NCBI GenBank assembly: GCA_963736015.1
Contig: CAVTNG010000007.1
Span: 171,803 to 235,802, forward strand
Direction of reading: 5' to 3'
DNA from: an uncultured Chloroflexia bacterium
GTDB taxonomy: Bacteria > Chloroflexota > Dehalococcoidia > DSTF01 > JACRBR01
DNA length: 64,000 bases
Under the pieces are notes generated by a model. The model was given only the letters and a program-made list of their open reading frames with translations, ran no database searches and was not told the DNA's origin. This document shows positions 1-40,644 of this stretch, in pieces; position 1 is the first letter of the stretch; each line of letters starts with the position of its first letter. A program made the translations under genes and the position numbers.

Positions 1-351
1 CAGCCGCAGCCCCGCGTACCCGGGTCGACCCACTCTGGCTGGCTGTTCGGATCCGCCGCCAGCGTGAAACCCACGACGACATCGCCCTCGAGTGCGACGA
101 AGGATGCCGGCGCGTCCACTTCCGCTACCGGGAAGGCCCGCTCCCACTCACCAGCTCCATACCCCTCGAGCCCGCGGTCGCGGAACGCGTCGTTGTACGC
201 CGCCCTGATGCTCGTGTGCGCGCCGCGCGACCATGACGCGATCGCGACTTCGCCGACGTGCCGTACGGGCGGCGCTGTCAGCGTACGCATATCGCACACC
301 ATCTCGTGCTCGATGTACTTCAGTCCAAAGCCGAGCGAGCATACAGCGCGG

Positions 352-741
352 TCACTGCCGGTGGTAGTTCGGCCGCGCGGGTGCAAGGACGCGCTCGATG
401 CGCTGGACATCATCGGCGGCCGGTGCCCCGCATCGGTCGAGCAGTGAGCGCAGCACGTCGTCGTGCAGCTCGGACCGGGCAGGGTCCGCGAGCGCATACA
501 TCAGGTCGCGGTGCTGCGACCCCGCTGAAACGCGCCGCACCCACCCCGCCGCGACGACACGACCGTCGGATGTGGCGATGAGCGACAATGCGCGGCCGCC
601 GCTGCGCCGCAGCTCATGACGGAGTCCATCGACCACCGTTGTCTCAAGCGTGCCGTACGCCTCGTCGCATCTTCGCGCGAGCGCTTCGACCTCGGGCACT
701 TCGTCGAGCGTGGCATCGCGCCACACCAGCTCGTCGCTCAC
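352..741 (-). CDS. GNAT-type acetyltransferase-like protein (rimI-like position next to tsaE), probably frameshifted; a GNAT C-terminal motif (LYARLGFGLKYIE) is readable in another minus-strand frame below 352
   Basis: ORF 352..741; N-terminus VWRDATLDEVPEVEALARRCD resembles RimI-type starts; location downstream of tsaE. Confidence 0.25.
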   Translation of the reverse strand: MSDELVWRDATLDEVPEVEALARRCDEAYGTLETTVVDGLRHELRRSGGRALSLIATSDGRVVAAGWVRRVSAGSQHRDLMYALADPARSELHDDVLRSLLDRCGAPAADDVQRIERVLAPARPNYHRQ

Positions 742-1212
742 GGTGTCCGCGGAGCCAGCGCCGACGCGAGCGCGCGGTACCGATCGCCGTCGCCTTCGAT
801 CTCGATCGAGCGCCCCTTCGCGCCGTCGTACGACAGGCGCACGACGAGGCGCTGGTCAGGCAGCTCCGCCGGCGCGCGCTCCGGCCACTCGACGACGAGC
901 ACGCCGCGCGATGCCAGCTCGTCGAGCGCCAGCTCCGCCACCTGCTGCGGGTCCTCGAGGCGGTAGAGGTCGGCGTGGAACAGCCGCAGCGACGCGCCGT
1001 CGTACTCGTTCATGATCACGAACGACGATGACTTGATCGCGTCCGCGCACGCCCATGCCCGCGCCCGATGCCCTGCGCCAGCACCGTCTTCCCCGCGCCA
1101 AGCTCGCCCGACAGCAGCACGACGTCGCCCGCGCGCAGCCGTGCGGCCGATGCGCTCGCCGATGCGCCGCGTCTCGCCCGGCGTCGCTGTGTGTAGCTCG
1201 AGAGCCGTCACG
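738..1212 (-). CDS. tsaE: tRNA threonylcarbamoyladenosine biosynthesis ATPase TsaE (YjeE), split across frames by compensating indels
   Basis: Walker A LLSGELGAGKTVLAQGIGRG in one minus frame (about 1050-1120) and AIKSSSFVIMNEYDGASLRLFHADLYRLEDPQQVAELALDE...VLVVEWPER in the 738..1433 frame; putative GTG start at 1212. Confidence 0.6.
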
Positions 1213-1214
1213 CC

Positions 1215-2218
1215 GGCGTCCGCTCGGCTGCGCAGGTGGTCCCAGCCCGCGACTCGCCAGCGCGATCTCGCGCCGTCTGCATCGAGCAGACGCACGCCCC
1301 GCCCGCCGACGATGCGCCCGATGTGGTGACGTCGCCGCCGCCCTGCGCGCGCGACGCCGGCGATCGCTCGCGTCTGCGCCGACCAGGACCAGCTCGTAGT
1401 CTTCGCCGCCGCTCGTCGCCAGCGCGAGCGCATCGTCCGGGTATGTCGCCGGCGAGCGCGCGGATCGATCGGCAGGCGCGCGGCATCGATCTCGGCGCCG
1501 ACAGCCGCTCGCGGCGCAGATCGTGTCCGAGGTCCTGCACGAGCCCGTCGCTGACGTCGATGGCGCAGCGCGACGCCCGCCGCAATGGCGGCGCGCCCGG
1601 CATCGATGCGCGGGCTGCGGCCGCGCGTGACGCCGGATCATCGCATCGACGGCAGCGGTCGCTCGGCGTGCTCCTTCATGCACGCAGCCCGCCGGCGGAG
1701 CCGCCGAGCGCGCCGGTCACCGCGACGGCATCGCCTGGTCGCGCCGCGTCGCGTCGCAGGAGCAGCGGTGAGCCGTCGGCGGCCACCGCGGCGTCGCCCG
1801 TAAGCGCGACCGTGATCGCGAATTCCGTGCCGGAGACGATGTCGCCGCCTGCGATCTCGACGCCGTACGCCTCGGCGCACTCGCGCAGCCCCGCGTACAG
1901 CGCATCGATGTCATCGACCAGGGTGTCCGGCGGCAGAACGAGCGTGACGAGGGCGAACGACGGCGTCCCACCCATCGCGGCGATGTCGCTGACGTTCACG
2001 GCAAGCGCCTTCCAGCCGACGTCGCTCCACCGCGCCCTGTCGGGCATGAAGTGGACGCCGGCGACCAGCGTGTCCGTCGTCGCGATGGTGTAGCCGCCGC
2101 CGCTGCGCCAGACCGCGGCATCGTCGCCAGGGCCAAGCAGGAGGCGCTCTCCGGGAGCGCCCATCGTCTTGCGCAGGCGCTCAATCAGGCCGAACTCGCC
2201 GAGGTCGCGGACGTCCAC
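1215..2218 (-). CDS. thiL: thiamine-monophosphate kinase ThiL (AIR-synthase-related), frameshifted at least twice; 3' end runs into tsaE without an in-frame stop
   Basis: ORF 1676..2218 MDVRDLGEFGLIERL...DAAVW...IATTDTLVAGVHF; continuation IDVSDGLVQDLGH, SGGEDYELVLVGAD and C-terminal VTxIGRIVGGRGVRLLDADG in other frames. Confidence 0.65.
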
Positions 2219-2257: not shown

Positions 2258-2993
2258 ATGCGCGTCGCCATCGTCTCGGATGTCCACAGCAACATCGAAG
2301 CGCTCACGGCCGTGTTCGCGCACGCTGTCTCGGGCGGCGCGCGTCGATGCGATTTGGTGCCTCGGCGACATCACGGGCTACGGCCCCGACCCCTCCGCCG
2401 TCATCGCGATGCTGCGGCAGGAGCGACTGACCTCCGTCGCCGGCAACCACGATCTCGCCGCCTGCGGCCGCATGGGCGTCGAGGAGTTCAACTCCCAGGC
2501 CGCCGCGGCGGCGAGATGGAACGCCGGCCAGTTGACGGATGACGAGCGCGCGTTCCTCCACGGGCTGCCGCTCATCGAGGTCGCCGGCGACTTCACGCTC
2601 GCCCACGGGTCGATCGCGCGGCCGGAGTGGGAGTACCTGCTCTCCGGCGAGCAGGCGCTGACCCAGTTCGAACTGCAGAAGACGCACGGCAGCATCGTCG
2701 GCCACTCGCACCTGCCGTTCTGGGTCGAAGAGCGTCCGGCCGGCATGCCACTGCTCATTCCGGTGGGCGATGGCGATGTGCTGAAGCTCGGCGGCCCGCG
2801 CGTGATCCTCAATCCGGGCAGCGTCGGCCAGCCGCGGGACGGTGATCCTCGCGCGTCATACATCCTGTACGATGATCAGGCGAAGACCGTCACGTGGCAC
2901 CGCGTCGAGTACGACATCGCCGCGACGCAGGCGAAGATGCGGGCTGCCGGGCTGCCGCAGTGGCTCAGCGACCGCCTCGCCATCGGGCGCTAG
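2258..2993 (+). CDS. calcineurin-like metallophosphoesterase (YfcE/Icc-type), one frameshift near 2330
   Basis: MRVAIVSDVHSNIEALTAVFAHA (frame of 2051..2542) then VDAIWCLGDITGYGPDP...NHD...GHSHLPF (ORF 2280..2993). Confidence 0.6.
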
Positions 2994-3028: not shown

Positions 3029-4087
3029 ATGGCCTGGACCGTCGCCGGACACGACTCCGTCATCCAGTCGCTCACGGGCGCCCTCGAGCAGGGGCGGCTG
3101 TCGCACGCCTACGTCTTCACCGGCCCGCAACACGTGGGCAAGACGCTGACGGCGCTCCAGTTCGCGCAGCTCCTGAACTGCACGGGGCCGGAGCCGCCCT
3201 GCGGCCGCTGCCGCCAGTGCCAGCACATGGCCGGCGGCGCGCATCCGGACGTCGAGATCGTCGATATCGGCGGGCTCTGCGACGAGGCGGAGCACGCCAC
3301 ACCGCCGACGACTCGCGGAGCATCCGCGTCTGCCAGGTGCGGCGGCTGCAGCACGTCGTCACGCTGGCGCCTTCGAGGGCCGTTACCGTGTCGTCATCAT
3401 CGAGCCGGCCGAGGCGATGGAGCCTGTCGCGGCCAACGCGCTGCTCAAGACGCTCGAGGAGCCGCCCGACAATGTCGTCATCATCCTCGTGACCGACAAG
3501 GAGGAGATGCTGCTGCCGACGATCCGCTCGCGCGCCCGCCGCATCGCCTTCTCCGGCATGGCGATCCGTGATTCGAGCGCGCGCTGCGCAGCCGCTGGGA
3601 CGTCGATCCGAGCCGGGCGGCCGAACTGGCGCGCCTTTCGGGCGGGCGCCTGGGCTGGGCGGTCCTCGCCCTCCACGACGAGGGGCTGCTCGAGCGCCAG
3701 CGCCAGGAGCTGGACCGCGCCGAGGCGCTGGCGTCGGCGCCGCTGGCCGAGCGCTTCGCCGTCGCCGGCGATGTCGGCGGCCGCTACACGCGCGACCGTA
3801 CCGGCGTGCAAGCGACACTCGAGACCTGGCAGGCGTGGTGGCGCGACATCCTGCTCATCGCCGCCGGGCGCGAGGCGGGCGCGGATCACCGCGACCGGTT
3901 GGACAGCCTGCGACCGCTCGCGGCACAATGCGACGTGCCCTCGGCCGTCCGGGCGGTGCGGGCGATCGGCGACGCGCGCCAGCAGCTCGCCGAGAACGCC
4001 AGCCCGGTGCTCACGATCGAGGCGATGATGCTCGCGCTGCCGCGGCTGCGGCCGAACCTCGTGGCCAGCCGCCTGGCGAGCCAGTGA
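3029..4087 (+). CDS. holB: DNA polymerase III delta-prime subunit HolB, in three frames (frameshifts about 3300 and 3790)
   Basis: MAWTVAGHDSVIQSLTGALEQGRLSHAYVFTGPQHVGKT...CGRCRQC; ANALLKTLEEPPDNVVIILVTD...TIRSRARRI in ORF 3417..; C-terminal domain in ORF 3806..4087. Confidence 0.65.
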
Positions 4088-4133: not shown

Positions 4134-5223
4134 ATGACAGAACAGCACCAGCGCATGCCCATCGGCGTGCGATTCAAGGAAGCCGGCAAGGTCTATTACT
4201 TCGATGGCGGCGGCGCGGAGCTTGACGTCGGCAACTACGTTGTCGTCGAGACAACGCACGGGCTTGAGATTGGGCGTGTCGTCATCTCCGCCGAACAGGT
4301 GATCGCCAGCGACATCAAGGAGTCCCTGAAGCCCATCGTCCGCCCCGCCACGCCGGAAGACCTGCGCCAGCGCGACGAGCTGCAGCGCAAGGCGGCCGAT
4401 GAGCTGCGAGAGGCGAAGCACGAGGTGGCGGAGCGCGACATCGATATGCAGATCGTCTCCGGCGAGTACGACCTCGGCGGATCCGCAGATCACCTTCTAC
4501 TTCACCGCCGCAGATCGCGTGGACTTCCGGCCCCTCGTCCGCGACCTCTCGTCGCGCTTCGGCGTGCGGGTGCAGATGCTACAGGTGGGCGACCGGGACC
4601 GCGCGAAGCTGATCGACGGTTACGACGTCTGCGGCCAGCGGCTCTGCTGCGCGTCATGGCAGACGGCGTTTCCGGCGGTCTCCATCAAGATGGCGAAGGA
4701 GCAGGATCTGCCGCTGAACCCGCAGAAGATCTCCGGCGTGTGCGGCCGCCTCTACTGCTGCCTGACGTTCGAGTACGAGGGCTACCGCGAGCTGCGGGGC
4801 CAGATGCCACGCGTCGGCTCGATGGTCTCGACGCCTGTCGGCGAGGCGAAGGTCAACAGCGTGAACGTCCTGCGCAAGACCGTGCGGCTGTGGCTCACAG
4901 AGCAGAAGCAGGTGCTCGAGATGCCGGCCGTGGACCTGCAGATGCAGTACGGCCTCACCGTGCGTCCGGTCGAATTGGTCGAGGAGATCGAAGCGCCGCT
5001 ACGCGAAGCCGTGCCCGAAGACGAAGCCCCGCAGCTCAGCACGCCCCCGGTCGAGACGCGTCCCGCCGGTGATGCCGCGCCGCACGAGGGCGGGGCGCGC
5101 AAGCGACGGGGGCGACGCGGTGGCCGTCAGCGCCGGCGCGGCGGGGGCGGGGATCAGGCGCCGCAGGGCGGATCACCGCAGGGCGCGCCTCCGGGCCCAC
5201 CGCCGGGGCCGCCCGGGCCCTGA
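4134..5223 (+). CDS. yaaT: PSP1-domain protein YaaT/RicT, one frameshift about 4480; Pro/Gly/Arg-rich C-terminal tail
   Basis: MPIGVRFKEAGKVYYFDGGG...VVVETTHGLEIGRVV then ITFYFTAADRVDFRPLVRDLSSRFGVRVQMLQVGDRDRAKLIDGYDVCGQRLCCASW; conserved holB-yaaT linkage. Confidence 0.6.
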
Positions 5224-5239
5224 GCGAGCCGGACCCTCC

Positions 5240-5617
5240 TTACGCGGCCACCCACTTCTTTGCATCGTCCAGTTGGGCCACCTCGAACACTTTCACGTCC
5301 CCGGGCATTGCGAAGCCGAACGCCTTCACGGCCGTGCGGTACACGTCGTGGTCCGTGACGAAGGCGATTTTCTCGAACGAGCCCATGTGCGACAGCCCGA
5401 CGCGCGCGTCGTCCCACATCGCGCCGGGCGAGTAGCTCTCGAACTCGGCGCCGAGCAAGTAGAGCATGCGAAGCTTCTCGTTCTTCTTCACGCTTGCCTC
5501 GACGGCGGGCATGATCACGTCCTTGTAGTCGTCGCCGGTGACCTTTCCCATCGCCTCGAATCCCAGGACGTTGTCCGGCAGCCCCTCAATCATACGAATC
5601 GCCATGATCGCCTCCAC
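5240..5617 (-). CDS. STAS/SpoIIAA-like domain protein (intact)
   Basis: ORF 125 aa MEAIMAIRMIEGLPDNVLGFEAMGKVTGDDYKDVIMPAVE... Confidence 0.45.
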   Translation of the reverse strand: MEAIMAIRMIEGLPDNVLGFEAMGKVTGDDYKDVIMPAVEASVKKNEKLRMLYLLGAEFESYSPGAMWDDARVGLSHMGSFEKIAFVTDHDVYRTAVKAFGFAMPGDVKVFEVAQLDDAKKWVAA

Positions 5618-5663
5618 GCTCTTGGTGTGTGACCTCGTCTGAGGATATGCGATCGGCGATTTA

Positions 5664-6506
5664 TTACGACAGATTCTGCACCAGCAGCACGGCGTAGATG
5701 AACAGCCCCAGCCCGACGCGGTACCAGACGAACGGGATCAGCGTGTTCGTGCGCAGGAAGCGCATCAGGAACGCCACCGCCACGTAGCCGACGACAAACG
5801 AGAACAGGAATCCGGTGAGGAAGAACAGGAAGTCATCGCCGCCCCGCGTGCCGTCCGCGAACTGACCGATGATTCTCGGCATCTCCTTCAGTCCCGCGCC
5901 GGCGATGATGGGCGCAGAGAGCAGGAACGCGAATGTCGCCGCCTCCGGCCGTTTGAGGTCGCGGAAGAGGCCGGCGCAGATCGTCGCGCCAGAGCGTGAG
6001 ACGCCCGGCACCAGCGCGAGTGCCTGTCCGAATCCGACGAACACGGAGTCGAACCAGCGCATCGCGTGCATGTCGCGGGTCCGCTTGCCGATTGCTTCGG
6101 CGGCGACGAAGACGGCGCTGAACGCGATGAGCATCGTCGCGACGAGGAAGGCGTTCCGGAACGCATCCTCCACCTTTGATTCGAGCAGCAGGCCGATGAT
6201 CCCCGCAGGGATCGTGCCCAGCACGATGAGCCATGCCAGCCGTCCCTCGGCATCACCAAGTGAGCGTTCCTGCAGCGTATGGATGCCGCCGCGCGCGAGA
6301 CTGAGCCAGCGCCGGCGGAAGTAAATCAGGATCGCGATGAGCGTGCCCATGTGTAGCGAGACATCGAATGGCAGGCCGTAGGTGTCCTTGTCCACGCCGA
6401 GCACGCGCTCGGCGAGGATGAGGTGGCCCGTGGAGGAGATGGGGAGGAATTCCGTGAGGCCCTGGACGATGCCGAGGATCGCGGCCTTGATCAGGTCTTC
6501 GTTCAT
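5664..6506 (-). CDS. uppP: undecaprenyl-diphosphatase UppP/BacA (intact)
   Basis: 280 aa, LGIVQGLTEFLPISSTGHL...SRSGATICAGL motifs, multiple TM segments. Confidence 0.85.
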   Translation of the reverse strand: MNEDLIKAAILGIVQGLTEFLPISSTGHLILAERVLGVDKDTYGLPFDVSLHMGTLIAILIYFRRRWLSLARGGIHTLQERSLGDAEGRLAWLIVLGTIPAGIIGLLLESKVEDAFRNAFLVATMLIAFSAVFVAAEAIGKRTRDMHAMRWFDSVFVGFGQALALVPGVSRSGATICAGLFRDLKRPEAATFAFLLSAPIIAGAGLKEMPRIIGQFADGTRGGDDFLFFLTGFLFSFVVGYVAVAFLMRFLRTNTLIPFVWYRVGLGLFIYAVLLVQNLS

Positions 6507-6661
6507 CGGCCGCGGCGATCGCCGTCGCTACCAGGCACCGTCGAGCGTATGCGGAAGGCCGCCGGGCGCGCAATGTGAATGCGTCAACCTAGGCAGGCGA
6601 TGCATCGAGGACGATGCGCCGGTTCGTTGATTCCAGGTGCCTCAGCGGAGGCGCGACCCGT

Positions 6662-8326
6662 TCAGTTTCCAGCCGCGAGCGCCAGCGTTCCGCCGGCGGA
6701 TGCGGGCACGTTGTCCTTCTCGCCGGGCTCCAGGTTGTAGCGCGCGCGCGTGCCGCTGCCGGCGCAGGACGCGCCCTCGCTCTGGTTCTTCGTGAGATCG
6801 CCGTCAAGCACGGGCGAGGCGCCCGAGAACATGCCCCACGGGCTCTCGCAGCCGGGGACGATCCACACGTGGTTCATCCAGCCGTTGCCGCCGTTCGCCT
6901 TCTTCCCGCCCATCGCTGCACACTGCTCCTCCGTCGTCGTGCTGTCGCCGATGACGCCAGTCGCGTTCGTGCAGAGCCCGATGTGGCGGTGGAAGTGGTC
7001 GTTCGGTCCGGTGAAGCCCTGCGTCGGTTCCGCGTCGCCCTGGTGCAGGATGTAGTACGAGAGGCCGATGACGTGCGAGCTGTCGTCCGTGCCGTCGTAG
7101 AGGAGCATCTCCGGCTTGTCGATCTCGAACTTGTCATCGACGAGCGAGAAGTTCATGAAGTGCGCCGCGATGCCGGGTACGTACGGCGTCACCTGCCGCC
7201 AGCCCGCGGCCTTCGCGTCCTTCACGGTCGGGTACGTGAGCGCGGTGTCGCGCGCTTCCGCCAGCTCAGACTCGAGCTGCTGGCAATCGCTCTTGCTGGT
7301 CATCGCCGTCCAAGGCTGCGGGCCCAGGTGGCCGCCCATGCCGGTGTCGTCCGGCGCTGCTGCCGAGCTGGTGGTCGTGCTCGTTGTCGTGGTCGTGCTG
7401 GCGCCGTGGACGTGGTTGGCCTTGCCCGAAGCGCCGAGCCAGCGCAGCCAGTTGTCGTAGACCTCGTCGTTGACCTTGGACAGCGCCAGCACCATCTGCG
7501 CGTCGCCGATCTCGCCCTTCACCGTCGTGTGCAGGCCGATGAGCTTGTCCAGCTCCGGCGAGCCCTGGATCGCGCCCACGGTACCCGGGTTGTCGCCGCC
7601 GGTCACCGTGTCGATGCCGGCCAGCGTCGTTTCCTGCCAGTAGGAGGCGGGGTTGATGCCGAGGTCGCAGCGGCTCTTCGCGAGTGCCGCCAGCGCCGCG
7701 GCGTCCGTCGTGCCGCCGCCGCTGCCGTGCGTGTGGCCGCTGGCCGTCGAGACGAGACCGCTGCCGGCGTCGCTATGGCTGTGCTGTACCAGCTCCGGGT
7801 CGGAGAGCCCGACCGACGTCGCCGCCAGCACCAGTACCGGGATCGCCGCAGCGACGGCGATCGTTTCGAAGGAGAGCCCCTTCGTCCCGCTCTCGACCTC
7901 CCCGAGGTTCGGCTTCGCGAGAAGCAGCGCCGCGCACGCCACCAGGCCCGCCTCGAAGATCGTCGTCATCAGGTCGATCGCCTCGACCGGCTCCGCCACG
8001 CCCGGGTTCGTGCCCACGGGTAGCCCGACGGTGCGGCTGATGATGTAACCGACGATCACGGCTGTGTTCAGCACGATCGTCCCGACCAGCACCTCGCGGC
8101 TCGGCCGTACGAGCAGCGCGATCGCCAGCACGATCTGCGCCCAACCCACCACGGCGAAGCCAATGGCCTCGGTGGAGGAGCTTGGGGCGTGGATCGGCGA
8201 CATCGCCAAGTGCACCGCGCCCGCCGCCAGCGAGAGCGAGGCCGGCAGCAGCCGCGCGGCCAGCCCGAGCGAAGATTTCGCGGCGGCGGCCCGAGATTCA
8301 GATTGGGAGTGGGTGATCGATGCCAT
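6662..8326 (-). CDS. large membrane protein: N-terminal 4-5 TM helices, Thr-rich linker (TTTTSTTTSS), Cys-containing extracytoplasmic domain; function unknown
   Basis: intact 554-aa ORF; hydrophobic stretches in first 180 aa; low-complexity T/S linker; no recognisable catalytic motif. Confidence 0.45.
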   Translation of the reverse strand: MASITHSQSESRAAAAKSSLGLAARLLPASLSLAAGAVHLAMSPIHAPSSSTEAIGFAVVGWAQIVLAIALLVRPSREVLVGTIVLNTAVIVGYIISRTVGLPVGTNPGVAEPVEAIDLMTTIFEAGLVACAALLLAKPNLGEVESGTKGLSFETIAVAAAIPVLVLAATSVGLSDPELVQHSHSDAGSGLVSTASGHTHGSGGGTTDAAALAALAKSRCDLGINPASYWQETTLAGIDTVTGGDNPGTVGAIQGSPELDKLIGLHTTVKGEIGDAQMVLALSKVNDEVYDNWLRWLGASGKANHVHGASTTTTTSTTTSSAAAPDDTGMGGHLGPQPWTAMTSKSDCQQLESELAEARDTALTYPTVKDAKAAGWRQVTPYVPGIAAHFMNFSLVDDKFEIDKPEMLLYDGTDDSSHVIGLSYYILHQGDAEPTQGFTGPNDHFHRHIGLCTNATGVIGDSTTTEEQCAAMGGKKANGGNGWMNHVWIVPGCESPWGMFSGASPVLDGDLTKNQSEGASCAGSGTRARYNLEPGEKDNVPASAGGTLALAAGN

Positions 8327-8446: not shown

Positions 8447-9386
8447 CTACCGCGTGCGCGGGTCCAGCGCGTCGCGCAGGCCGTCGCCGACGAACGTGAA
8501 ACAGAGCATCAGCAACGCCACGGCCGCGGCGGGGAAGACGACGTTCCAGACGTTGCGCTGGATGACGGCGTAGCCCGAGCTGACGAGCGTGCCGAGGCTG
8601 GCCGCAGGCGGAGGTAACCCGAGCCCCAGGAACCCGAGCGCCGCCTCGGCGAAGATCGCTGCCGGGATGCGCGAATGTGACTGCGACGATCACCGGACCG
8701 AGCGTATTCGGCAGCATGTGCGTGGAGACGATGCGCCACCGCGATGCCCCCAGCGCGCGCGCGGCGATCACGAAGTCGCGCTCGGCGAGTGAAAGCATTT
8801 GGCCGCGCACCAGCCGCGCGACGGTGATCCACGCCACCAGGCCGATGGCGAGGATGATGATCATCTTCTTGTTCGTCACCACGGGCCAGCTATGCCCGAT
8901 GAGCACGGACCGCAAGAGAATGATGGCGAGGATCTCCGGCAACGAAATCATCACGTCGGCGAAACGCATCAATAAGTTGTCGGACCACTTCCCGCCCATC
9001 GCCGCCGCCGCCCCCACGGACAGGCCCATGATCAACACGACGAGGGCCGCGCCGACGCCGATCTGCAGCGAGATGCGGATCCCCTCGAGCACGCGGGCGA
9101 ACATGTCGCGCCCGAGCTGGTCGGTGCCGAACCAGTGTTCCGCCGAGGGGCCCTGCTGCACCGCGTCGTAGTTCTGATCGTTGGAGTCGTAGCGAGCCAG
9201 AGGCCCGACATAGGCGCCCACGAACGCGATGAGCGTGATGGCTACGAGCAGGACGACGGCGGTGATCGCGAGCCGATTACGGATGAGCCGCCGCCAGGCG
9301 TCGGTCCATAGCCCCCGATGCTGCTTGGGCTCGGGCGCCGCTTCCAGCGTCGAGATGCCGCCGCGCGCGACTTCCTGCGTCGCCAT
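8447..9386 (-). CDS. oppC: peptide/nickel ABC transporter permease (OppC/DppC), one frameshift near 8650-8700
   Basis: ORF from 9386 with permease core; true C-terminus CFTFVGDGLRDALDPRTR* is in a different frame ending 8447. Confidence 0.7.
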
Positions 9387-15935: not shown

Positions 15936-15953
15936 ATCCCGTAGGATCGAGCC

Positions 15954-21153: not shown

Positions 21154-21265
21154 GGCGGCGCGCCCTAACGTAGCCGTACCCGCGGACCTCATCCGAGGTC
21201 CGCGTTTGTCGTTTCGCCTGAACTGGCTTGACGCCGGGCCGACGCCTCCGTGATAAGATCGCGCG

Positions 21266-22606: not shown

Positions 22607-22851
22607 CGGCGGGATCGCGCTGAGTCGTCATGCGGGGTGCCCCGGCCTGTCATTCTGAGCGTCGCGAAGAATCTAGCCCGTGATGGCACGGCCTCATCAA
22701 ACGTGCACGCGGGGTCGTTGGATGCGCTCCCGATCGGCTGCGGCGTGTCCTTCCAGCGATCGCCCTGACCGGAGAAGATCCCTCGCTACGCTCGGATGAC
22801 ATGCGTGGAGCCGAACCTGCTACCATAACCACTGCCGGGAGGTGACATACC

Positions 22852-26917: not shown

Positions 26918-26947
26918 TTGAAGCCCTGTGCTGAGTAGCCGCGGTCA

Positions 26948-28261
26948 TCAGCCCGCGCGCACGGCGAATACGCGCACCGGCTCGGCGATACCCTTGAGCT
27001 CGTACTCGCCGCGATCTCCGAACGTCACTCCTGCCGACGATCGCGCCATCCCTCGCACGACGTCCGACACCAGGATCTCGCCGGGTGCGGAGAGCCCGCA
27101 GATCCGCGCGGCGATGTTCACCGCGCCGCCGTACACATTGTTGGACTCGACGATCACATCGCCCGCATGCAGGCCGATGTGCAGCGGCAGCCCCGCGTCG
27201 TCACCCGCCGCGAGCACAGCGAGCGCGCCTCGTACGCCCTCGGACGCCGACTGGAACGTCGCGAGCACGCCATCACCCACCAGCTTGCCCTCAATGAGGG
27301 TGCCGCCGTGGCCTTCGATGACCGACCGGAGCGTGCCGTCCAGCCCGCGCGCCCTTGCCCGGAACGACTCGTCGCCGAGTGCCTCCGTCAGACCCGTCGA
27401 ATCCGCGATGTCCGCAAACAACAGCAGGGCCATCCTCTGCGGCGGAGACACCGGCACGGCCAGTTCGGGCACGCCGAGAAAGCTCCACGTCGCGGCCGGC
27501 ATCGCCTGCACTTCTTCCTCGGTTTCCATCTCGACCAGTTGCGCGTTCGGGAGCGTCGCCGCGATCCGCCGCGTTGGCTCCAGGAAGATCGCCTGCGGGC
27601 CCGCCCGATTCGCGATAAGCAGGGTCGGGCACGTCACATGAGGGAGGATGCCTTCCACATTCCAGGAGGTGACCTGCTCGAAGAAGGTCAGCAGGGAGGC
27701 CGGCGTCGTGCTCGCGCGGATCATCTCGGCGATGCTCGCCGCCAACTCGTGGTCCCCCCAGCCGAGCGCGACTCGGGCGAGCGTTTCCGTGGTGATGGTC
27801 CAGTCCCGTTCGGCGAGCGAAACGATAGCCGCCGTGGAGGGATCGGCGATTTCGTCGAACCGCGAAAACGCGCGGTTCAGGACGAGGTGTGAAACCCGTT
27901 GCGGGTTGCGTGCGGCGTAGGTCAGCGCGATCGGGGTCGCAAGCCCCGTTGCGTCCAGGGCGAAGGTCTCGCATCCGACGCGATCTACAACGGCCTCGAT
28001 GTCATCCGCGCACGCGTCGAGCGAGAAGTCAAGAGCGTCCCGCTGCGACCGCCCGAAGCCGTGCAGATCGAATCGCACGAGCGTCCGGTATCGCGCGACG
28101 CGGTCGGCGTGGAGCCTGGACCCCGGCAGGTCGAGCTCCATCTCCAGGTTGCTGACGGGCACCGAGGGAATGGCGACGATCGCCGGGCCGTTGCCGGCCA
28201 CGTGGTAGGCGATGGTGACGCCGCTGCGGGTCTTCGTATAGAGCGCTCGGACATCGCTCAC
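26948..28261 (-). CDS. alpha/beta-hydrolase--class III nucleotide cyclase fusion protein, paralog 2 (intact)
   Basis: 437 aa; C-term LLFADIADSTGLTEALGD...GDGVLATF...GLHAGDV; same architecture as 21266..22606. Confidence 0.75.
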   Translation of the reverse strand: MSDVRALYTKTRSGVTIAYHVAGNGPAIVAIPSVPVSNLEMELDLPGSRLHADRVARYRTLVRFDLHGFGRSQRDALDFSLDACADDIEAVVDRVGCETFALDATGLATPIALTYAARNPQRVSHLVLNRAFSRFDEIADPSTAAIVSLAERDWTITTETLARVALGWGDHELAASIAEMIRASTTPASLLTFFEQVTSWNVEGILPHVTCPTLLIANRAGPQAIFLEPTRRIAATLPNAQLVEMETEEEVQAMPAATWSFLGVPELAVPVSPPQRMALLLFADIADSTGLTEALGDESFRARARGLDGTLRSVIEGHGGTLIEGKLVGDGVLATFQSASEGVRGALAVLAAGDDAGLPLHIGLHAGDVIVESNNVYGGAVNIAARICGLSAPGEILVSDVVRGMARSSAGVTFGDRGEYELKGIAEPVRVFAVRAG

Positions 28262-29599
28262 TCGACGACCGCCTCCCGCACCGCAAACACTCGCTGGGGT
28301 TCGGCAATCCCTTTGAGTGCGTGCTCACCGCGATCCTCGAACGTCACGCCGGCGGAACTGCGGGCGAGATCGGCGACGGTGCGCGAGACGAGGACCTCGC
28401 CCGGAGGCGCGAGCGCGCTGATGCGCGAGGCGATGCTGACCGCGCTGCCGAATACGTTGCTCCGGCCGTCTGCATCGACCTCGCGGAGCACGTCTCCGGC
28501 ATGGAGGCCGATATGGAGGCCGAGGCCCGTCGGACGCGGCGGCGGCCTCCAACGTAAGGGCTGCCGCGATGGCCTGCGAGGCTGCGGGGAACGTCGCGAG
28601 GATGCCATCGCCGAGGGTCTTCCCATCGACCACCGTGCCTCCGTGGTCGCGCACGGCGATGCGCAGCGCCTCGTCGAGGGGGCGTGCCTGTTCGCGGAAG
28701 GCGGCGTCGCCGATGCGCACGGTATGCGCGGTGTGGTCGGCGATGTCGGCGAAGAGGATGACGGCGGTTCCTGATGCCAACGCGTCGTCGCCCTCCCCGT
28801 GCGCGGCCAGGAACTGCTCGACGATTGTCGCGTACGTTTGTTCGGAGCCCGGCTTGATGGTGGCGAACTCCGCGTTCGGCAGCAGCGTGACAAGCTTCTT
28901 CCCGAAGCGACTCGCTTCTTGAGTGCGCCCTCCAACGGCGGTTGGGGACGTGTCCTCGATGACCAGGGCTGGCGACGTCACGTTGGGCAACTCAGGCGTC
29001 GAGTCGAGTTGCTCAAGCTCGCTCATCACACGGTCCCAGGACTCTGCCGTGAACTGTCTTGAGGTGTGTTCTACCCATCTCTTCGCACCGCGCGCTCGGT
29101 CCCATCCGAACGTACGCAGCGCGGCCAGCTGCAGGTACTCGTGAAAATGCGTCTGCTCAATCACGGGGAGACCGGCGAGCGCCGCCCTCCGCATCGACGA
29201 GCCCGGTGGTGAGGGATTCCAGAGCGCGAGCCGCCGTACGCGCTCAGGATGCCGCGCGACATATGCCAGGGCGGTCTGGGCAGGCGTCAGGTGTCCCAGA
29301 AGGTCGAATCGATCGAACTGGAGTGCGTCGGCGACGGCCTCAACGTCCCGGACCGAGGATTCGAGGGTGTACTCCGGTTCGGAACCGGCGGAAAGGCCAA
29401 GCCCGCGCGGGTCCCAGATTACGACCGTGCGGTGATCCGCAAGTGAGAGCCACGGTGCGTCACTGTCCGAAGCAAGCTCATCGTCGACGGCCAGTCGCAG
29501 GATCGCCCGCACAATGAGAAGCGGCGGACCGCTACCGGCGATGGCGTAGGCGATGTCCGCTCCATCGGACGTTCGCGCGTATCGAATGCGCGGCTCCAT
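28258..29599 (-). CDS. alpha/beta-hydrolase--class III nucleotide cyclase fusion protein, paralog 3 (frameshift about 28530 inside the cyclase domain)
   Basis: ORF 28325..29599 gives hydrolase part and ILFADIADHTAHTVRIGD...GDGILATF; cyclase C-term GLHAGDVLREVDADGRSNVFGSAVSIASRI...GIAEPQRVFAV in ORF 28258..28935 frame; ATGA overlap with paralog 2. Confidence 0.65.
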
Positions 29600-29841
29600 C
29601 AGCCCGCCCCCGGCACGCGCACCGCATACACACGCACCGGCTTGGCGATGACCTTGAGTGCGTGGTCCCCGCGGTCGTCGAACATGACGCCCGCGGAGGT
29701 GCGTGCCAGATCGGCGACGGTGCGTGAGACGAGCGCCTCGCCGGGTTCGGCGAGGGTGCTGATGCGTGCGGCGATGTTGACGGTACCGCCAAAGACGTTG
29801 CTCCGCCCGCCGGGGTCGCGTTTACGGACCATCGGCGCCAT
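29599..29841 (-). pseudogene. 3' remnant (last about 75 codons) of a further cyclase-domain paralog
   Basis: GGRSNVFGGTVNIAARISTLAEPGEALVSRTVADLARTSAGVMFDDRGDHALKVIAKPVRVYAVR; no upstream hydrolase domain; abuts proS upstream region. Confidence 0.55.
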
Positions 29842-29918
29842 TATCGCCGCGTCCGCGGTTTGAAGTCACGCAGCAGCGCGCGTACTGCCACCCGCGCACG
29901 TCCGATAGAATCCGCCAC

Positions 29919-31633
29919 ATGCGAATGTCCCGCCTCTTCGGCAAGACGCTCCGCAACGCACCCGCCGAGGCCGAGACGCCGAACCACCAGCTCATGCTGC
30001 GCGCGGGGCTCGTGCAGCAGCTCGCGGCCGGCATCTACTCTTACCTGCCCACCGGCTGGAAGGTGATGCGCAAGATCGAGCAGATCATCCGCGAGGAGAT
30101 GGACCGCGCGGGCGGGCAGGAGATCGTCATGCCCGTCGTGCAGCCCGCCGAGCTGTGGGAGCTGTCCGGCCGCGCCCGGACCATGCACGACGTCCTCTTC
30201 CACCTGAAGGACCGCCGCGAGCGCGACCTCGTCCTCGGCCCGACGCACGAGGAAGTGATCGTCGATCTCTTCAAGAAGCAGGTGCAGAGCTACCGCGACA
30301 TGCCGCTCATGGTCTACCAGATCCAGACGAAGCTCCGTGACGAAGCGCGCCCGCGCGGCGGCCTGATGCGCGTGCGCGAGTTCACCATGAAGGACGCCTA
30401 CTCCTTCGACGAGAGCTGGGAGAAGCTCGACGACTCCTACGACGCCGCGCGCGAGGCCTACGTCCGCATCTTCGAGCGCTGCGGCGTGCCGACGGTGCCC
30501 GTGCAGGCCGACTCCGGCGCGATCGGCGGCAAGGACAGCGAGGAGTTCATGTTCATCGCCGACTCCGGCGAGGACACCGTCCTCTTCTGCCGAACTGCGA
30601 CTACGCCGCCAACGACGAGAAGGCCGGACACCGGAAGCGGCGAGTTGCCGCCCGAGGAGCCGCTCCCGCTCGAAGAGGTCGCCACGCCAGGCCAGAAGAC
30701 GATCGATGACCTGGTGAAGTTCCTCGGCGTGCCGCACGACGAGGACGCTGAAGGCCGTCTTTTACGAGGCCGACGGCGAGCCCGTGTTCGTCGCCATCCG
30801 CGGCGACCTCGAGGTGAACGAGGTCAAGCTCGCGAACGCGCTCAAGGCTACGACGGTCGCGATGCTCGACGACGACGGGCGTCCGCAAGCACGGCCTCGT
30901 CGCCGGTTCGGCGTCGCCCGTCGGCCTCAAGGACATCCGCACCATCGCCGATGACACGGTGCTGACGTCGCCCAACCTCGTCGCCGGCGCCAACAAGCCG
31001 GACACGCACTACCGCAACGTCAACCACGGCCGCGACTGGAGCGCCGACTGTCGTCACGGACATCTCGCTCGCGCGCGAGGGCGACCTCTGCCCGCGATGC
31101 GGCGGCGCGGCTCGCAGGCCAAGCGCGCGTACGAGATGGGCCACGTCTTCAAGCTCGGGCACGATGTACACGGAGAAGATGGACGCGCTCTTCACCGACG
31201 AGAACGGCGATCTGCAAGCCGGCCGTCATGGGCTGCTACGGCATCGGCGTCGGCCGCGTGTTCGCCGGCGCGATCGAGGCCAACCACGACGAGCGCGGCA
31301 TCATCTGGCCGGCCGGAGCTGGCGCCGTACGACGTGCACCTCGTCGCGCTCGGCTTCGACAAGCCGGGTGTGCGCGAGAGCGCGGAGCAGGTGTACCAGC
31401 AGCTCCAGGACGCCGGGCTCGAGGTGCTCTACGACGACCGCGAGGAGGGCACCGCCGGCGTGAAGTTCAACGACGCCGACCTGCTCGGCATGCCCGTACG
31501 CGTCACCGTAAGCCCCCGCAGCATCGAAGAACGGCGGCGCCGAGGTGAAGCGCCGCACGGAGAAGGACGCCCGCGTCGTCCCGCTCACAGACGCAGCTTC
31601 AGCGGTGAAGGAACTCGTGCCGCAACGCACCTA
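29919..31633 (+). CDS. proS: prolyl-tRNA synthetase (bacterial type), split into at least 6 frame segments
   Basis: [47 protein letters not shown]...; later segments [96 protein letters not shown], ...ELVPQRT*. Confidence 0.7.
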
Positions 31634-33644: not shown

Positions 33645-33645
33645 G

Positions 33646-35034
33646 CTACGCCGGCGCGTTGCGGCGCGCCGCCTGCCATCGCGCGCGCATGTCGTCCGTC
33701 GCGCGCTCGTCGGCGTGGATCTGGCCGTAACGCGACGCCGTAAATGCCGCGCTCACCTCGCCCGGCACGGCGGAGCCATAGTGTGCATCGAGCGGCGGCG
33801 CGAACTGCATCGGCGTCGAGGCGGGCGGGCGTTCGAGCCCTGACGATGCAGCGTCGGCGAGCATGTCGAAGTAAAGGCGCTGAACGCCCGTCGCGGCTGG
33901 CCGCCCCGCCCCGCGCCGGAACCGTCCCGTGAGGTCGCCCCACAGCGCGCGCAGATCATCGCCGAGCGAGACGTCGCGCTCGACCTGCGTCCGCACCTCG
34001 CCCGGCTTGCCCTTGCGCGCGGCGAAGCGCCGGTACGCGAACCAGAGCACGATGAGCAGCGCGATTCCGAGCGCGGCCACCACCCCGCCGGCGACGACCC
34101 AACCGAGCACCTGCTGCCAGAGCGGCCGCGTCGTGTCGTGCTCGAGCGGCTGTTGCGGCGTCTGCTGCTGGTCGGGGGGCGGCGGCTGGTCGAGCGACGG
34201 GAAGAGGTGCCGCAGCAGCCGAATCGGCGCCGCGAACAGCGGCTCCAGCACGTAGCGTCCGAACAGCTCGAGTGGCGCCGCCAGCGGCCGGGCCACAGGC
34301 TCGAGCGCGCCCGCCGACGATGGGTCGAAGGCCGCGGCGACCACCGCCAGTACCGCCGCGGCGCCGACGAGCAGCCCCGCGCCGAGCGCCCAGCGCGATA
34401 CGAAGCCCGTCACCGGCGCGTCGGGCTCCGGAGCCTGGAACAGGGCCAGCGCCGCGAGCCCCAGCAGCAGGTACAGCACCCCCAGCGCGCCGAAGACGTC
34501 CGGCCCGCGCGTGTCGGGCGCCACGATCGCCGCGATCAGCACGACCGCGAGGCCGAACGCCGCCGTCCCGAGCACGTCGTCGTATTCCAGCGGCTGCTGC
34601 CCGCGTGAGACGCCGCGCACCCACAATCCGATGAGGACGATGGAGCCGCCGAACACGCCGCGATGCTCGTCGAAGCTCGTCGCCGTCTCCGTGACCAGCG
34701 CGCGCAGCCAACCGAGGTCCCACGGCGCGGTCGACGCGGCGTACTCGAAGTGCAGGATCGCGAACATCGCCAGCACGCTTGCCGCCACGCCCACGCGCCG
34801 CATCGACGTTTCGTCGAGGTCCATCTCGGCGAGCACTCGCGACAGCGCGAACAATCCGGCCACCACGGCCGTCACCGTCGTGAGCGATGGCCCCGCGCCC
34901 TCGCCCTTCGACAGGACGCCAACGATGAGCGCCGCCAGCGCATAGCCCGAGATCACGTCGAGCGCGACGGCCAGCGGCGTCCGCGCCGCGCGCACGGTCA
35001 TCGCGAGGCCTCCGCGGGCGAGGCGGCGCTCCAC
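33646..35034 (-). CDS. multi-TM membrane protein with C-terminal DUF4129-like domain (third gene of a MoxR-DUF58 operon)
   Basis: 462 aa intact; about 8 hydrophobic segments; C-term QRLYFDMLADAASSGLERPPASTP. Confidence 0.5.
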   Translation of the reverse strand: MERRLARGGLAMTVRAARTPLAVALDVISGYALAALIVGVLSKGEGAGPSLTTVTAVVAGLFALSRVLAEMDLDETSMRRVGVAASVLAMFAILHFEYAASTAPWDLGWLRALVTETATSFDEHRGVFGGSIVLIGLWVRGVSRGQQPLEYDDVLGTAAFGLAVVLIAAIVAPDTRGPDVFGALGVLYLLLGLAALALFQAPEPDAPVTGFVSRWALGAGLLVGAAAVLAVVAAAFDPSSAGALEPVARPLAAPLELFGRYVLEPLFAAPIRLLRHLFPSLDQPPPPDQQQTPQQPLEHDTTRPLWQQVLGWVVAGGVVAALGIALLIVLWFAYRRFAARKGKPGEVRTQVERDVSLGDDLRALWGDLTGRFRRGAGRPAATGVQRLYFDMLADAASSGLERPPASTPMQFAPPLDAHYGSAVPGEVSAAFTASRYGQIHADERATDDMRARWQAARRNAPA

Positions 35035-36231
35035 GCGTTCTCGACGTGCGAGACGTCGTGCACGGGCACGGCCTCAAGTAGCTCCGGCCACGTCTCGCCG
35101 GAAGTCGAGAGCACCAGCACCTGTTGGCCGCGGCTGCGCAGCCGCAGCAGCGTCGCCGCCAGCGCCTCCGGCATCGTCGCCGTCACGACGACAATCGTCG
35201 TGCCGATGCTCAGTCGGTGCTCCTCGCGGTCCAGCATTGCCGCCAGCGGCTCCAGCACGAACGGCGTCACGACGCCCAGCGCTTCGAGCACGCGGATGAA
35301 CTGCTCGGCGCGCTGCCCCGGCGCGATGCGGATCGCGCGGTCGGCGTCAGGCACCGTGCTGTTGACCAGCAGGCCGACGCTGTAACGCCGGTCGTAGGCG
35401 TCCGCGCGATCGATGCCGCTACCACGAGCGCGCGCTCCAGGTAGTCGTGGATATACCCCGCCCAGGCCGGCACCATCGTCTGCGTGTTTACGCACAGCAG
35501 CAGGTAGCGCGACGACGTCGGCTCGTACACCCGCGACTGCATCTTCCCCAGCCGTGCCGTCGCGCTCCAGTCGATGCGCCGCATGCTGTCGCCGGGCCGA
35601 TAGTCGCGGATCCCCGCAACGCGCGACGGGTCCTCGAATACGGGGAGCCCCTTCGGGCGGTCGCCGTACGGCCGGCGCGCTGGCAGCCCCAGGTCGTCGA
35701 GCAGATCACCTGCGGGTACACCACCACGCGCGTGCGGCGCGTCTCGACATGCTCTTCCTCGAACAGGCCGAACGGATCGCCGGAGCGGATGTGCGTCGGT
35801 CCGATCTCCCAGATGCCGCGCTCGGGGCGACGCAGGTCCATCGAGCGGCTGATGCGCTCGTAGCCGCCGGCGCTCGTCTTCCAGCGCAGGCTCACGGAGC
35901 CCACCTGGCCGACCTGGGCCAGCTCATCCTTCGAGCCGGCCAGCATCGCCTCCGGGAACTGCTCGTCCACCTCGAGGCGGGTGAGGGGCAGCGGCTTGCG
36001 GTTCGTGATGCGGAGCGTCAACGGCACGCTCTCGCCCGCGAACGCGCGGTCTTCCGGCAGCAGGCGCTCGTGCTCCACGCGACGCAGCGACCAGCGGGCC
36101 CACAGCGCCGCGCCGCCGCAGGCAAGCGGCACGCCGAACCCAAGCATCGTCACGATGCCGCTGCGCGCCACGATCCCGGCGATGATGATCGCAAGTGCAA
36201 CCCACGGCCACAGCTCGCGCACGTCGCGCAC
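35010..36231 (-). CDS. DUF58 (vWA-like) domain protein, in at least 3 frame segments
   Basis: N-term ORF 35488..36231 (TM + LRITNRKPLPLTRLEVDEQFP); core MRRIDWSATARLGKMQSRVYEPTSSRYLLLCVN in ORF 35267..35584; C-term in ORF 34998..35495. Confidence 0.55.
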
Positions 36232-36235
36232 GGGC

Positions 36236-36551
36236 CTAACCCTCGACCGGGACGGGGAGTTCGTCCAGCAGCTCGCGCACCAGGCTCTCGGCGTCGCGTC
36301 CGCGCAGCCGCGACTGCGAGCCCAGCGTGATGCGGTGCGCCAGCACCGGCGCCGCCAGCGTCTTCACATCGTCAGGCATCACGTAGTCGCGTCCGCGTAC
36401 CGCTGCCAGCGCCCGCGCCGCGCGGAACAGCGCCAGGGATGCGCGGGGCTCGCGCCCAGCTCCACGGCGTCGTGCGCGCGCGTCGCCTGCGTCAGGCGGA
36501 CGATGTAGTCGCGCACCGATGGCTCGCAGTGCACGGCCGGCAGCATTAGGC
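36236..36551 (-). pseudogene. moxR: MoxR-family AAA ATPase, only the C-terminal (lid) third present; 5' part missing at the G8 tract
   Basis: ...[66 protein letters not shown]... with one internal frameshift; no Walker A/B upstream. Confidence 0.55.
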
Positions 36552-40641: not shown

Positions 40642-40644
40642 CAT

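What the first reader, a model, noticed from the sequence alone, without database searches (positions are those of the whole stretch)
1..36550. Pervasive small-indel frameshifts, including in essential genes
These genes need 2-7 reading-frame pieces each to reconstruct the protein: tsaE, thiL, holB, yaaT, oppC, ccr, the FAD oxidoreductase, the TIGR03083 protein, gltA (5 pieces), cyclase paralog 3, proS (6 or more pieces), DUF58, the MaoC-like gene and the phosphoesterase. Several frameshifts are compensating pairs (tsaE, proS). Neighbouring genes of similar length are intact (uppP, oppB, oppA, both 440-aa cyclases, the 655-aa radical SAM, the 429-aa beta-helix protein). Multiple hits in proS, holB and gltA are not compatible with a viable cell. 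Uncorrected long-read indel error is therefore more likely than true pseudogenisation. The right-hand half is much cleaner (685-aa recombinase, GroEL and three transposases intact; only ku is broken).
Basis: seen in the sequence. Interest (0 to 1): 0.55.

Follow-up and report, generated by a model that had tools for sequence, protein, structure and literature searches.

The report
Assembly indel errors, not pseudogenes
The many broken genes in the left 36 kb of this soil Chloroflexota contig are almost certainly one-base consensus errors of a noisy metagenome assembly rather than real gene decay, so the finding is a data-quality warning and not biology.

Summary
Frameshift-aware alignment to intact orthologues from four short-read relatives finds about 43 frame breaks in 15 genes between 1 and 36550. 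These include proS (11), thiL (7), gltA (4), holB (3) and tsaE (2). Ten neighbouring genes are unbroken.

- Stitched proteins match full-length NCBIfam models, with TsaE, RicT, Ccr, GltA and ProS above the curated cut-offs.
- There is no in-frame stop in 7,529 aligned codons.
- dN/dS is the same in broken and intact genes.
- About 31 of the 43 breaks are one-base insertions.
- A sister assembly of a 87-95% identical genome from the same ENA accession series carries about 90 breaks of the same kind. They fall in other genes, including rSAM, oppA and oppB, which are intact here.

The breaks are not at homopolymers. They are clustered, enriched beside codon third positions, and 6 of 24 recur at homologous sites in the sister assembly. 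That suggests site-dependent or polymorphism-linked consensus errors.

The right half is not clean (at least 14 breaks). It is Rhizobiales-like mobile DNA joined inside a truncated MoxR gene, so the contig may be chimeric.

The parts
747..1172 (-). tsaE, 3 frame pieces. Breaks at 1139 (+1) and 1051 (-1 or +2) form a compensating pair.
   Evidence: (TIGR00150, 99.8 bits against a cut-off of 60.1, profile 8-132 of 135).
1230..2218 (-). thiL, 8 pieces. Seven breaks lie between 1323 and 1678, mostly +1.
   Evidence: Two references agree on 1503, 1522, 1571 and 1614.
2258..2990 (+). Metallophosphoesterase, one +1 break at 2341-2342.
   Evidence: Deleting one base gives 244 aa, the length of the orthologue.
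3029..4075 (+). holB (DNA polymerase III delta'), three -1 breaks at 3296, 3365 and 3570.
   Evidence: (the stitched protein aligns end to end with NF005972, profile 13-326 of 328, but scores 155-168 bits, below the curated holB cut-offs of 181-340).
4134..5220 (+). yaaT/ricT, one +1 break at 4483-4485.
   Evidence: (NF041131, 2-212 of 213).
8450..9389 (-). oppC, one +1 break at 8669-8671. The same extra base is present in sister assembly L166.
12661..13910 (+). ccr (crotonyl-CoA carboxylase/reductase), +1 breaks at 13632-13634 and 13852.
   Evidence: (TIGR01751, 567 bits, 3-397 of 398).
15951..17249 (+). FAD-dependent oxidoreductase, +1 breaks at 16260, 16392 and 17016.
   Evidence: The break at 16392 is shared with L166.
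18180..19019 (-). TIGR03083/MDMPI_N family protein, +1 breaks at 18258, 18713 and 18909.
   Evidence: The 89% identical short-read scaffold L167 lacks all three extra bases and encodes an intact 282-aa protein.
19122..20229 (-). gltA (citrate synthase II), breaks at 19188-19190 (+2), 19511-19513 (+1), 19813 (-1) and 20119-20120 (-1 or +2, in an ACGACG repeat).
   Evidence: (TIGR01800, 463.5 bits against a cut-off of 421.3).
25464..26343 (+). MaoC-like dehydratase, one +1 break at 25828-25833.
28261..29602 (-). Hydrolase/adenylate-cyclase paralogue 3, one +1 break at about 28528-28531.
   Evidence: Five references agree.
29910..31628 (+). proS, 11 breaks between 30591 and 31527 (one -1, ten +1). 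There are none in the first 680 nt.
   Evidence: (NF006625, 682 bits against a cut-off of 558, 1-558 of 559).
35022..36231 (-). DUF58 protein, -1 breaks at 35404 and 35703.
36239..36543 (-). MoxR-type AAA ATPase. Only the C-terminal ~100 aa are present, with a -1 break at 36450. Synteny with Chloroflexota relatives ends here.
4933..7660 (.). Control stretch (uppP and neighbours) with no breaks. It is 99.85% identical, with 0 gaps, to an independent Logan contig from run ERR11523661.
20737..24819 (+). Control stretch of intact genes: SAM-decarboxylase-like gene, cyclase 1 and radical SAM. The radical SAM and SAM-decarboxylase-like genes are broken in the sister assembly L166; the cyclase 1 stretch has no counterpart in L166.
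36544..64000 (.). Right half: lower GC, Rhizobiales-like mobile DNA (recombinases, IS630, IS66, IS4-like elements, groES-groEL-usg, ku), with at least 14 frame breaks of its own.

Best explanation
The frame breaks are consensus errors of the assembly, not mutations in the organism.

The window comes from a 238,362-bp contig of an uncultured high-GC Chloroflexota genome. Its consensus carries extra or missing single bases at roughly 1 per kb, and at about 1 per 100 bases in two bad stretches (1050-1680 and 30590-31530). Each such base shifts the frame of an otherwise perfectly conserved gene.

The errors are not the classical homopolymer miscounts. They are mostly one-base insertions placed beside codon third positions, often leaving two alternative synonymous bases side by side. 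Some recur at the same site in an independent sister assembly.

The most likely process (inferred, not shown) is a consensus built from few reads, or from reads of closely related co-occurring strains or species. At variable or hard-to-call sites, both alternatives end up written into the sequence.

Shown: the breaks, their types, their contexts, and the same error type in sister assemblies.
Inferred: the sequencing platform, low coverage, and the strain-mixing mechanism.
For: 1. Stitched translations match full-length NCBIfam models in one stretch. Five are above the curated cut-offs (TsaE, RicT, Ccr, GltA, ProS). holB aligns end to end but scores below its cut-offs.
2. Removing one base per site restores proteins of orthologue length.
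3. There are 0 in-frame stops in 7,529 aligned codons, 4,632 of them in broken genes.
4. dN/dS is 0.16-0.56 in broken genes and 0.13-0.69 in intact genes.
5. About 31 breaks are +1, 8 are -1 and 4 are ambiguous between +2 and -1.
6. The breaks are clustered: variance/mean per kb is 2.15, P=0.003.
7. Sister assembly L166 (ENA ERZ25039520, contig_142479) is syntenic and 87-95% identical. It has about 90 breaks, nearly all +1, and no stops. They hit rSAM, oppA, oppB, the DAGK-like gene and the SAM-decarboxylase-like gene, all intact in the window.
8. Another sister contig, L081 (ERZ25039490), has about 30 one-base insertions in 1.2 kb relative to two window copies of an IS630 transposase, one of which is an intact ORF.
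9. The two IS66 copies in the window differ by 4 one-base gaps against 2 mismatches.
10. Short-read relatives L083, L086, L087, L104 and L167 all have intact genes.
11. Where an independent contig of the same population exists (L165), the window has no frame break and the two agree with 0 gaps.
12. On mechanism: 15 of 24 insertions are 'synonymous doublets' at the wobble position, against a simulated null of 0.37-0.39 (P about 0.01). Only 1 of 24 is a pure homopolymer extension, against a null of about 0.25. Six of 24 sites recur in L166 against 1.4 expected (P=0.002), and three of them carry a different inserted sequence.
13. The literature reports that long-read consensus indels cause frameshifted gene calls, and that metagenome bins below about 40x coverage need polishing (PMC9262707).
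Against: - No reads or accurate independent sequence cover any of the 43 sites, so no single break is directly disproved.
- Eight reconstructed 'corrected' proteins for five single- or triple-break genes are not in the 15-billion-protein collection. No near-identical intact ProS or TIGR03083 protein exists there either; the best hits are 85% and 89% identical.
- The absence of any homopolymer association is atypical of polished Nanopore or HiFi assemblies.
- Two break sites (oppC 8669, FAD 16392) have exactly the same sequence in the window and in L166. That could in principle be shared ancestry.
- The dN/dS test cannot exclude very recent inactivation, because the references are distant (dS 0.3-1.0).
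Confidence: 0.93

Rival explanations
1. True pseudogenisation: the organism is undergoing massive genome decay and these genes are really inactivated.
For: Breaks are present in 15 genes. A related genome (L166) is also full of breaks. Six sites coincide between the two.
Against: - proS carries 11 breaks, and holB, tsaE, thiL and gltA are also hit.
- There are no nonsense codons in 7,529 codons.
- dN/dS is not raised.
- Insertions outnumber deletions about 3:1, opposite to the deletion bias of bacterial decay (background knowledge).
- L166 and the window break different genes. rSAM, oppA and oppB are intact here and riddled there, which is incompatible with inherited decay at 87-95% identity.
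- Short-read relatives at 89% identity are intact.
Confidence: 0.03
2. A minority of the breaks are real. The candidates are the two sites with identical sequence in the window and L166 (oppC 8669, FAD oxidoreductase 16392). These would be either shared frameshift mutations or sites of programmed +1 recoding, and the rest would be errors.
For: The extra base and its flanks are identical in two independent assemblies, whereas the short-read relatives lack it. The recurrence exceeds chance.
Against: - Downstream sequence stays conserved in the shifted frame, as for all the other error sites.
- Three of the other four recurrent sites carry different inserted sequences in the two assemblies, which points to error hot spots rather than ancestry.
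- There is no slippery motif or homopolymer at the sites.
Confidence: 0.04
3. Classical homopolymer-length errors of long-read sequencing, as the reader suggested checking.
For: This is the general expectation for Nanopore assemblies (PMC9262707).
Against: - The longest homopolymer within 3 nt of a break averages 2.16, against 2.14 at random coding positions (P=0.47).
- Only 3 of 43 breaks lie near a run of 4 or more.
- Pure homopolymer extensions are rarer than for random insertions, 1 of 24 against about 25%.
Confidence: 0.03

Closest known systems
Frameshifted gene calls caused by residual indels in long-read (Nanopore or PacBio) assemblies, especially low-coverage metagenome bins (PMC9262707)
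   Same: One-base indels split otherwise conserved genes. Essential genes are hit. Density varies along the contig. Sister assemblies show the same defect at other places. One-base corrections restore full length.
   Different: The breaks are not concentrated in homopolymers. They are insertion-biased, enriched beside codon third positions and partly recurrent between assemblies. This fits consensus trouble at variable or hard-to-call sites better than homopolymer miscounting.
Pseudogene-rich decaying genomes (Mycobacterium leprae type; recalled from background knowledge)
   Same: Many genes are interrupted by frameshifts while their neighbours are intact.
   Different: Real decay mixes frameshifts with nonsense mutations and larger deletions, is deletion-biased, spares indispensable genes such as aminoacyl-tRNA synthetases, and is largely shared between close relatives. 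None of this is seen here.
Chimeric contigs in metagenome assemblies (for the junction at about 36.55 kb)
   Same: GC content, taxonomic affinity and error density change abruptly inside a truncated gene, next to IS fragments.
   Different: This was not tested with reads. A real integration of a mobile element, for example by the adjacent large serine recombinase, cannot be excluded.

Membership tests
Assembly consensus indel artefact | Removing or adding 1-2 bases per site restores a full-length, well-conserved protein. | tested here: met
Assembly consensus indel artefact | The damage is indel-only: no nonsense codons, no larger deletions, no relaxed selection. | tested here: met
   0 stops in 7,529 codons. 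dN/dS is the same in broken and intact genes.
Assembly consensus indel artefact | Other assemblies from the same data series show the same error type at other positions. | tested here: met
   L166 has about 90 breaks in other genes. L081 has about 30 insertions in 1.2 kb.
Assembly consensus indel artefact | Accurate independent reads or contigs of the same strain lack the indels. | tested here: inconclusive
   The only same-strain contig found (L165) covers 4933-7660, where the window has no break; the two agree with 0 gaps. No such sequence was found for the broken sites.
Assembly consensus indel artefact | Indels sit in homopolymer runs (classical long-read signature). | tested here: not met
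   (P=0.47).
Assembly consensus indel artefact | The sequence derives from noisy long reads at low coverage. | not testable with these tools
   There is only indirect support. The source contig is 238,362 bp and held by NCBI and ENA. Sister contigs have Flye-like names ('contig_N') in ENA ERZ25039490, ERZ25039502 and ERZ25039520. The accessions were not found in the literature.
True pseudogenes / reductive genome decay | A mixture of frameshifts, nonsense mutations and deletions, with deletion bias. | tested here: not met
   No stops. About 31 insertions against about 8-12 deletions.
True pseudogenes / reductive genome decay | Indispensable single-copy genes remain intact. | tested here: not met
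   proS has 11 breaks, holB 3 and tsaE 2.
True pseudogenes / reductive genome decay | Inactivating lesions are shared with close relatives. | tested here: not met
   18 of the 24 comparable window breaks are absent from L166. L166 breaks genes that are intact here. L167 is intact.
Programmed ribosomal frameshifting | A single conserved site per gene, with a slippery motif. | tested here: not met
   There are up to 11 sites per gene, no homopolymer or slippery context, and the sites are absent from the relatives.

The most novel reading that the evidence does not exclude
The two frame breaks that are sequence-identical in two independent assemblies of related genomes (oppC 8669 and FAD oxidoreductase 16392, both in a TCGCGC context) could be genuine conserved +1 sites that the cell reads through by recoding. 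The other breaks would still be errors.
Probability: 0.02. Interest if true: 0.65.

Novelty: not a real feature. Interest (0 to 1): 0.1.

Why it matters
The finding has no biological significance. Its practical value is as a warning.
- Gene calls, completeness estimates, pseudogene counts and metabolic reconstructions from this contig and its sister assemblies are unreliable until the sequence is polished.
- The contig may join DNA of two phyla.

A methodological point may interest people who build long-read metagenome-assembled genomes. The errors here avoid homopolymers, favour insertions beside codon third positions and recur between assemblies. Homopolymer-centred quality checks would therefore miss them.

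Tried and rejected
- **Flanks of the radical SAM gene in 80 GTDB genomes.** Only the gene itself is conserved and there is no synteny, so these were useless as references.
- **Exact look-ups of window proteins to find independent contigs.** rSAM, oppB, cyclase 1, the beta-helix protein and the SAM-decarboxylase-like protein are not on record. Only GroEL and UppP were found.
- **A concatenated query (ThiL, TsaE, TIGR03083, HolB) to fish for near-identical fragments.** All hits were 419-995 aa long, so the search apparently favours proteins of about the query's length. It gave nothing useful.
- **Eight reconstructed 'corrected' proteins looked up exactly.** None is in the collection.
- **tblastn with composition correction switched off.** High-GC noise flooded the output. 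I replaced it with my own frameshift-aware alignment.
- **Tracing accessions ERZ25039490, ERZ25039502 and ERR11523661 in the literature.** Nothing was found, so a link to the Microflora Danica long-read project (PMC12313526) remains a guess based on naming style.
- **A single sequence motif at the recurrent sites.** None is evident.
- **Homopolymer association.** Tested and rejected.
Full report
**What the window is.**
- GC is 64-72% up to about 36 kb and 60-65% beyond.
- The left half belongs to an uncultured Chloroflexota/Dehalococcoidia-like lineage. The radical SAM protein at 22852-24819 is up to 87% identical to proteins of Chloroflexota genomes.
- The UppP and GroEL proteins of the window occur exactly on a 238,362-bp contig held by NCBI and ENA. 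That contig is presumably the source.

**Checking the observation.**
- A codon-usage Viterbi segmentation, trained on eight unbroken genes of the window, already showed many same-strand frame switches in the left half.
- Translations stitched along that path match full-length NCBIfam models in a single stretch:

| Gene | Model | Bits | Cut-off | Profile span |
|---|---|---|---|---|
| TsaE | TIGR00150 | 99.8 | 60.1 | 8-132 of 135 |
| RicT/YaaT | NF041131 | 246.5 | 70 | 2-212 of 213 |
| Ccr | TIGR01751 | 567 | 378.55 | 3-397 of 398 |
| Citrate synthase | TIGR01800 | 463.5 | 421.3 | 2-364 of 368 |
| ProS | NF006625 | 682 | 558 | 1-558 of 559 |

- HolB (NF005972, 13-326 of 328) and OppC (NF045476, 3-276 of 278) also align end to end, but score below the curated cut-offs of those models.
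- I then fetched syntenic relatives whose gene sets are normal and intact:
  - L086 and L087 cover window 777-21147.
  - L104 covers 9378-20213.
  - L083 covers 25459-36544.
- I aligned their proteins to the window with a frameshift-aware dynamic programme. Independent references agree on the positions.
- The result is 43 frame breaks in 15 genes, listed under 'parts'.
- Ten neighbouring genes have none: uppP, oppB, oppA, the DAGK-like gene, the SAM-decarboxylase-like gene, cyclases 1 and 2, rSAM, the beta-helix protein and DUF4129.
- The compensating pairs in tsaE and proS are real.

**What kind of lesions.**
- Nucleotide alignments to the closest relatives (82-89% identity) show the events base by base.
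- About 31 are one-base insertions and 8 are one-base deletions. Four are either +2 or -1 depending on the reference. One example is 20119-20120, inside an ACGACG repeat.
- No in-frame stop occurs in 7,529 aligned codons, of which 4,632 are in broken genes.
- Nei-Gojobori dN/dS against the relatives is 0.16-0.56 in broken genes and 0.13-0.69 in intact genes. proS, with 11 breaks, has dN of 0.086.
- Deleting one base per site gives proteins of orthologue length: MaoC 293 aa, phosphoesterase 244, OppC 313, YaaT 362.

- The longest run within 3 nt of a break averages 2.16, against 2.14 for random coding positions (P=0.47).
- Only 3 of 43 breaks lie near a run of 4 or more bases.
- The breaks are clustered: variance/mean per kb is 2.15 (P=0.003).
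- Two bad stretches stand out: 1050-1680 with 9 breaks and 30590-31530 with 11. Clean stretches of 4-6 kb lie between them.

**Evidence from other assemblies.**
- L166 is ENA ERZ25039520 contig_142479, 295,776 bp. It is syntenic with window 7388-33224 at 87-95% nucleotide identity.
- Its own gene calls are already fragmented: proS as 433 + 57 aa, rSAM as 339 + 256 aa, citrate synthase as 255 + 129 aa.
- The same alignment method finds about 90 breaks in it, nearly all +1, and no stops: proS 15, rSAM 6, ccr about 10, oppA about 18, oppB about 9, the DAGK-like gene about 8.
- rSAM, oppA, oppB, the DAGK-like gene and the SAM-decarboxylase-like gene are intact in the window and broken there. The beta-helix gene is unbroken in both, and the TIGR03083 gene, which has three breaks in the window, is called as a full-length 282-aa protein in L166.
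- Decay inherited by two genomes this similar cannot give that pattern. Independent error processes can.
- L081 (ERZ25039490 contig_21805) overlaps the right half of the window. It carries about 30 one-base insertions in 1.2 kb relative to two window copies of an IS630 transposase, one of which is an intact ORF.
- Within the window, two IS66 copies are 99.4% identical and differ by four one-base gaps against two mismatches.
- L165 is a contig from run ERR11523661 in the Logan collection. It matches window 4933-7660 at 99.85% identity with no gap. That stretch has no frame break in the window, so the window is accurate exactly where it looks accurate.
- L167 is a farmland scaffold 89% identical to the window. 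It lacks all three extra bases of the TIGR03083 gene and two of the gltA ones, and it encodes an intact 282-aa protein.

**How the errors may arise (suggestive only).**
- In gene orientation the extra base usually sits directly after a codon, and differs from the wobble base before it (gtc|G, aat|C, ctc|G, gaa|G and so on).
- I classified the 24 cleanly resolvable insertions. In 15 of them, deleting either of two different adjacent bases gives the same protein, so they are 'synonymous doublets'.
- Random insertions simulated in the same genes give 37-39% of that class (P about 0.01).
- Pure homopolymer extensions are 1 of 24, against about 25% in the simulation.
- At 13632-13633 the two bases, C and G, are the two alleles seen among the relatives.
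- At 19188-19190 the window reads ctGAcatc where the relatives read either ctgatc or ctcatc, as if both versions had been written in series.
- Six of 24 window breaks coincide within one residue with breaks in L166, against 1.4 expected (P=0.002).
  - At three of these sites (proS 31311, gltA 19511, gltA 20120) the inserted sequence differs between the two assemblies.
  - At proS 31113 the same extra C is present in both, within flanks that otherwise differ.
  - At two sites (oppC 8669, FAD 16392, both TCGCGC) the sequence is identical.
- This pattern fits consensus errors at variable or hard-to-call sites. Candidate causes are few reads, mixed related strains, or context or modification effects.
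- I formed this hypothesis after seeing the data and the P values are modest. I rate the specific mechanism at about 0.5. The artefact verdict itself I rate at about 0.93.

**Provenance.**
- Contig size and 'contig_N' names resemble Flye output.
- The literature states that long-read consensus indels cause frameshifted gene calls, and that metagenome bins below about 40x coverage need polishing (PMC9262707).
- I could not link the accessions to any paper. The platform therefore remains an inference.

**The right half.**
- It is not 'only ku broken'. Using intact paralogues or L081 as references, I count at least 14 breaks: a second recombinase copy 5, a third copy 1, an IS630 copy 2, a partial IS66 copy 4, an IS66 fragment 1, and ku 1.
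- It also has a different origin.
  - groES-groEL-usg is 79-84% identical in DNA, and syntenic, with Mesorhizobium, Sinorhizobium and Bradyrhizobium plasmids.
  - The best plasmid matches of the 685-aa recombinase are alphaproteobacterial. The plasmid collection is biased, so this point is weak.
- Chloroflexota synteny stops inside moxR at about 36543, where only the last ~100 codons are present. IS fragments follow.
- The contig may therefore be a chimeric join, or may carry a real mobile-element insertion. Reads are needed to decide.

**Verdict.** The feature is an assembly artefact, so its biological interest is low. It is useful mainly as a caution about this contig and its sister assemblies.

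Noticed in passing
window 36544-64000; junction at 36544-36680: The right half has lower GC and Rhizobiales-like content: groES-groEL-usg is 79-84% identical in DNA to Mesorhizobium, Sinorhizobium and Bradyrhizobium plasmids, alongside serine recombinases, IS66, IS630 and ku. It begins inside a truncated Chloroflexota moxR gene. This is either a chimeric contig or a real mobile-element insertion.
   Followed up: partly
window 29614-29859 (-), and L083 4644-9920: Only the last ~80 codons of a fourth hydrolase/cyclase paralogue lie next to proS. Relative L083 has four complete tandem paralogues. L166 has no counterpart of window 26863-29899, the cyclase 2/3 array. This could be repeat collapse in the assembly or real copy-number change.
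   Followed up: partly
window 8669, 16392, 19511, 20120, 31113, 31311, and the homologous sites in L166: Frame breaks recur at the same sites in an independent sister assembly: 6 of 24 against 1.4 expected. Two of them (8669, 16392) have identical sequence in a TCGCGC context.
   Followed up: partly
L081 7120-8301, against window 47730-48875 and 45422-46184: The sister contig has about 30 one-base insertions, many of them T, in 1.2 kb of an IS630 transposase. Both window copies lack them.
   Followed up: partly
window 46197-47219 and 52070-53088: Two IS66 copies are 99.4% identical. The second is partial and differs by four one-base deletions against two mismatches.
   Followed up: yes
window 1-1172 (-): Sequence resembling GNAT acetyltransferase domains (my reading of the translation; no family search was run) follows tsaE directly. 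In relatives, TsaE is fused to acetyltransferase domains (P0121, 465 aa, PF02367 + PF00583) or to ThiL (P0122). It is unclear whether the window gene is such a fusion, because of the frame breaks.
   Followed up: no
window 13853-13975: After correction, ccr runs 21 codons past the stop position of its relatives, whose C-terminal ends also differ from one another. This could be a further undetected error or a real difference.
   Followed up: partly
window 14051-14462 (+): A small gene pair looks like a HicA/HicB toxin-antitoxin system. This is my reading of the translations; no family search was run.
   Followed up: no
window 6662-8326 (-): An intact 554-aa protein has N-terminal hydrophobic segments and a Thr/Ser-rich linker. 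No function was assigned. Independent contig L165 confirms its sequence from 6662 to 7660.
   Followed up: no
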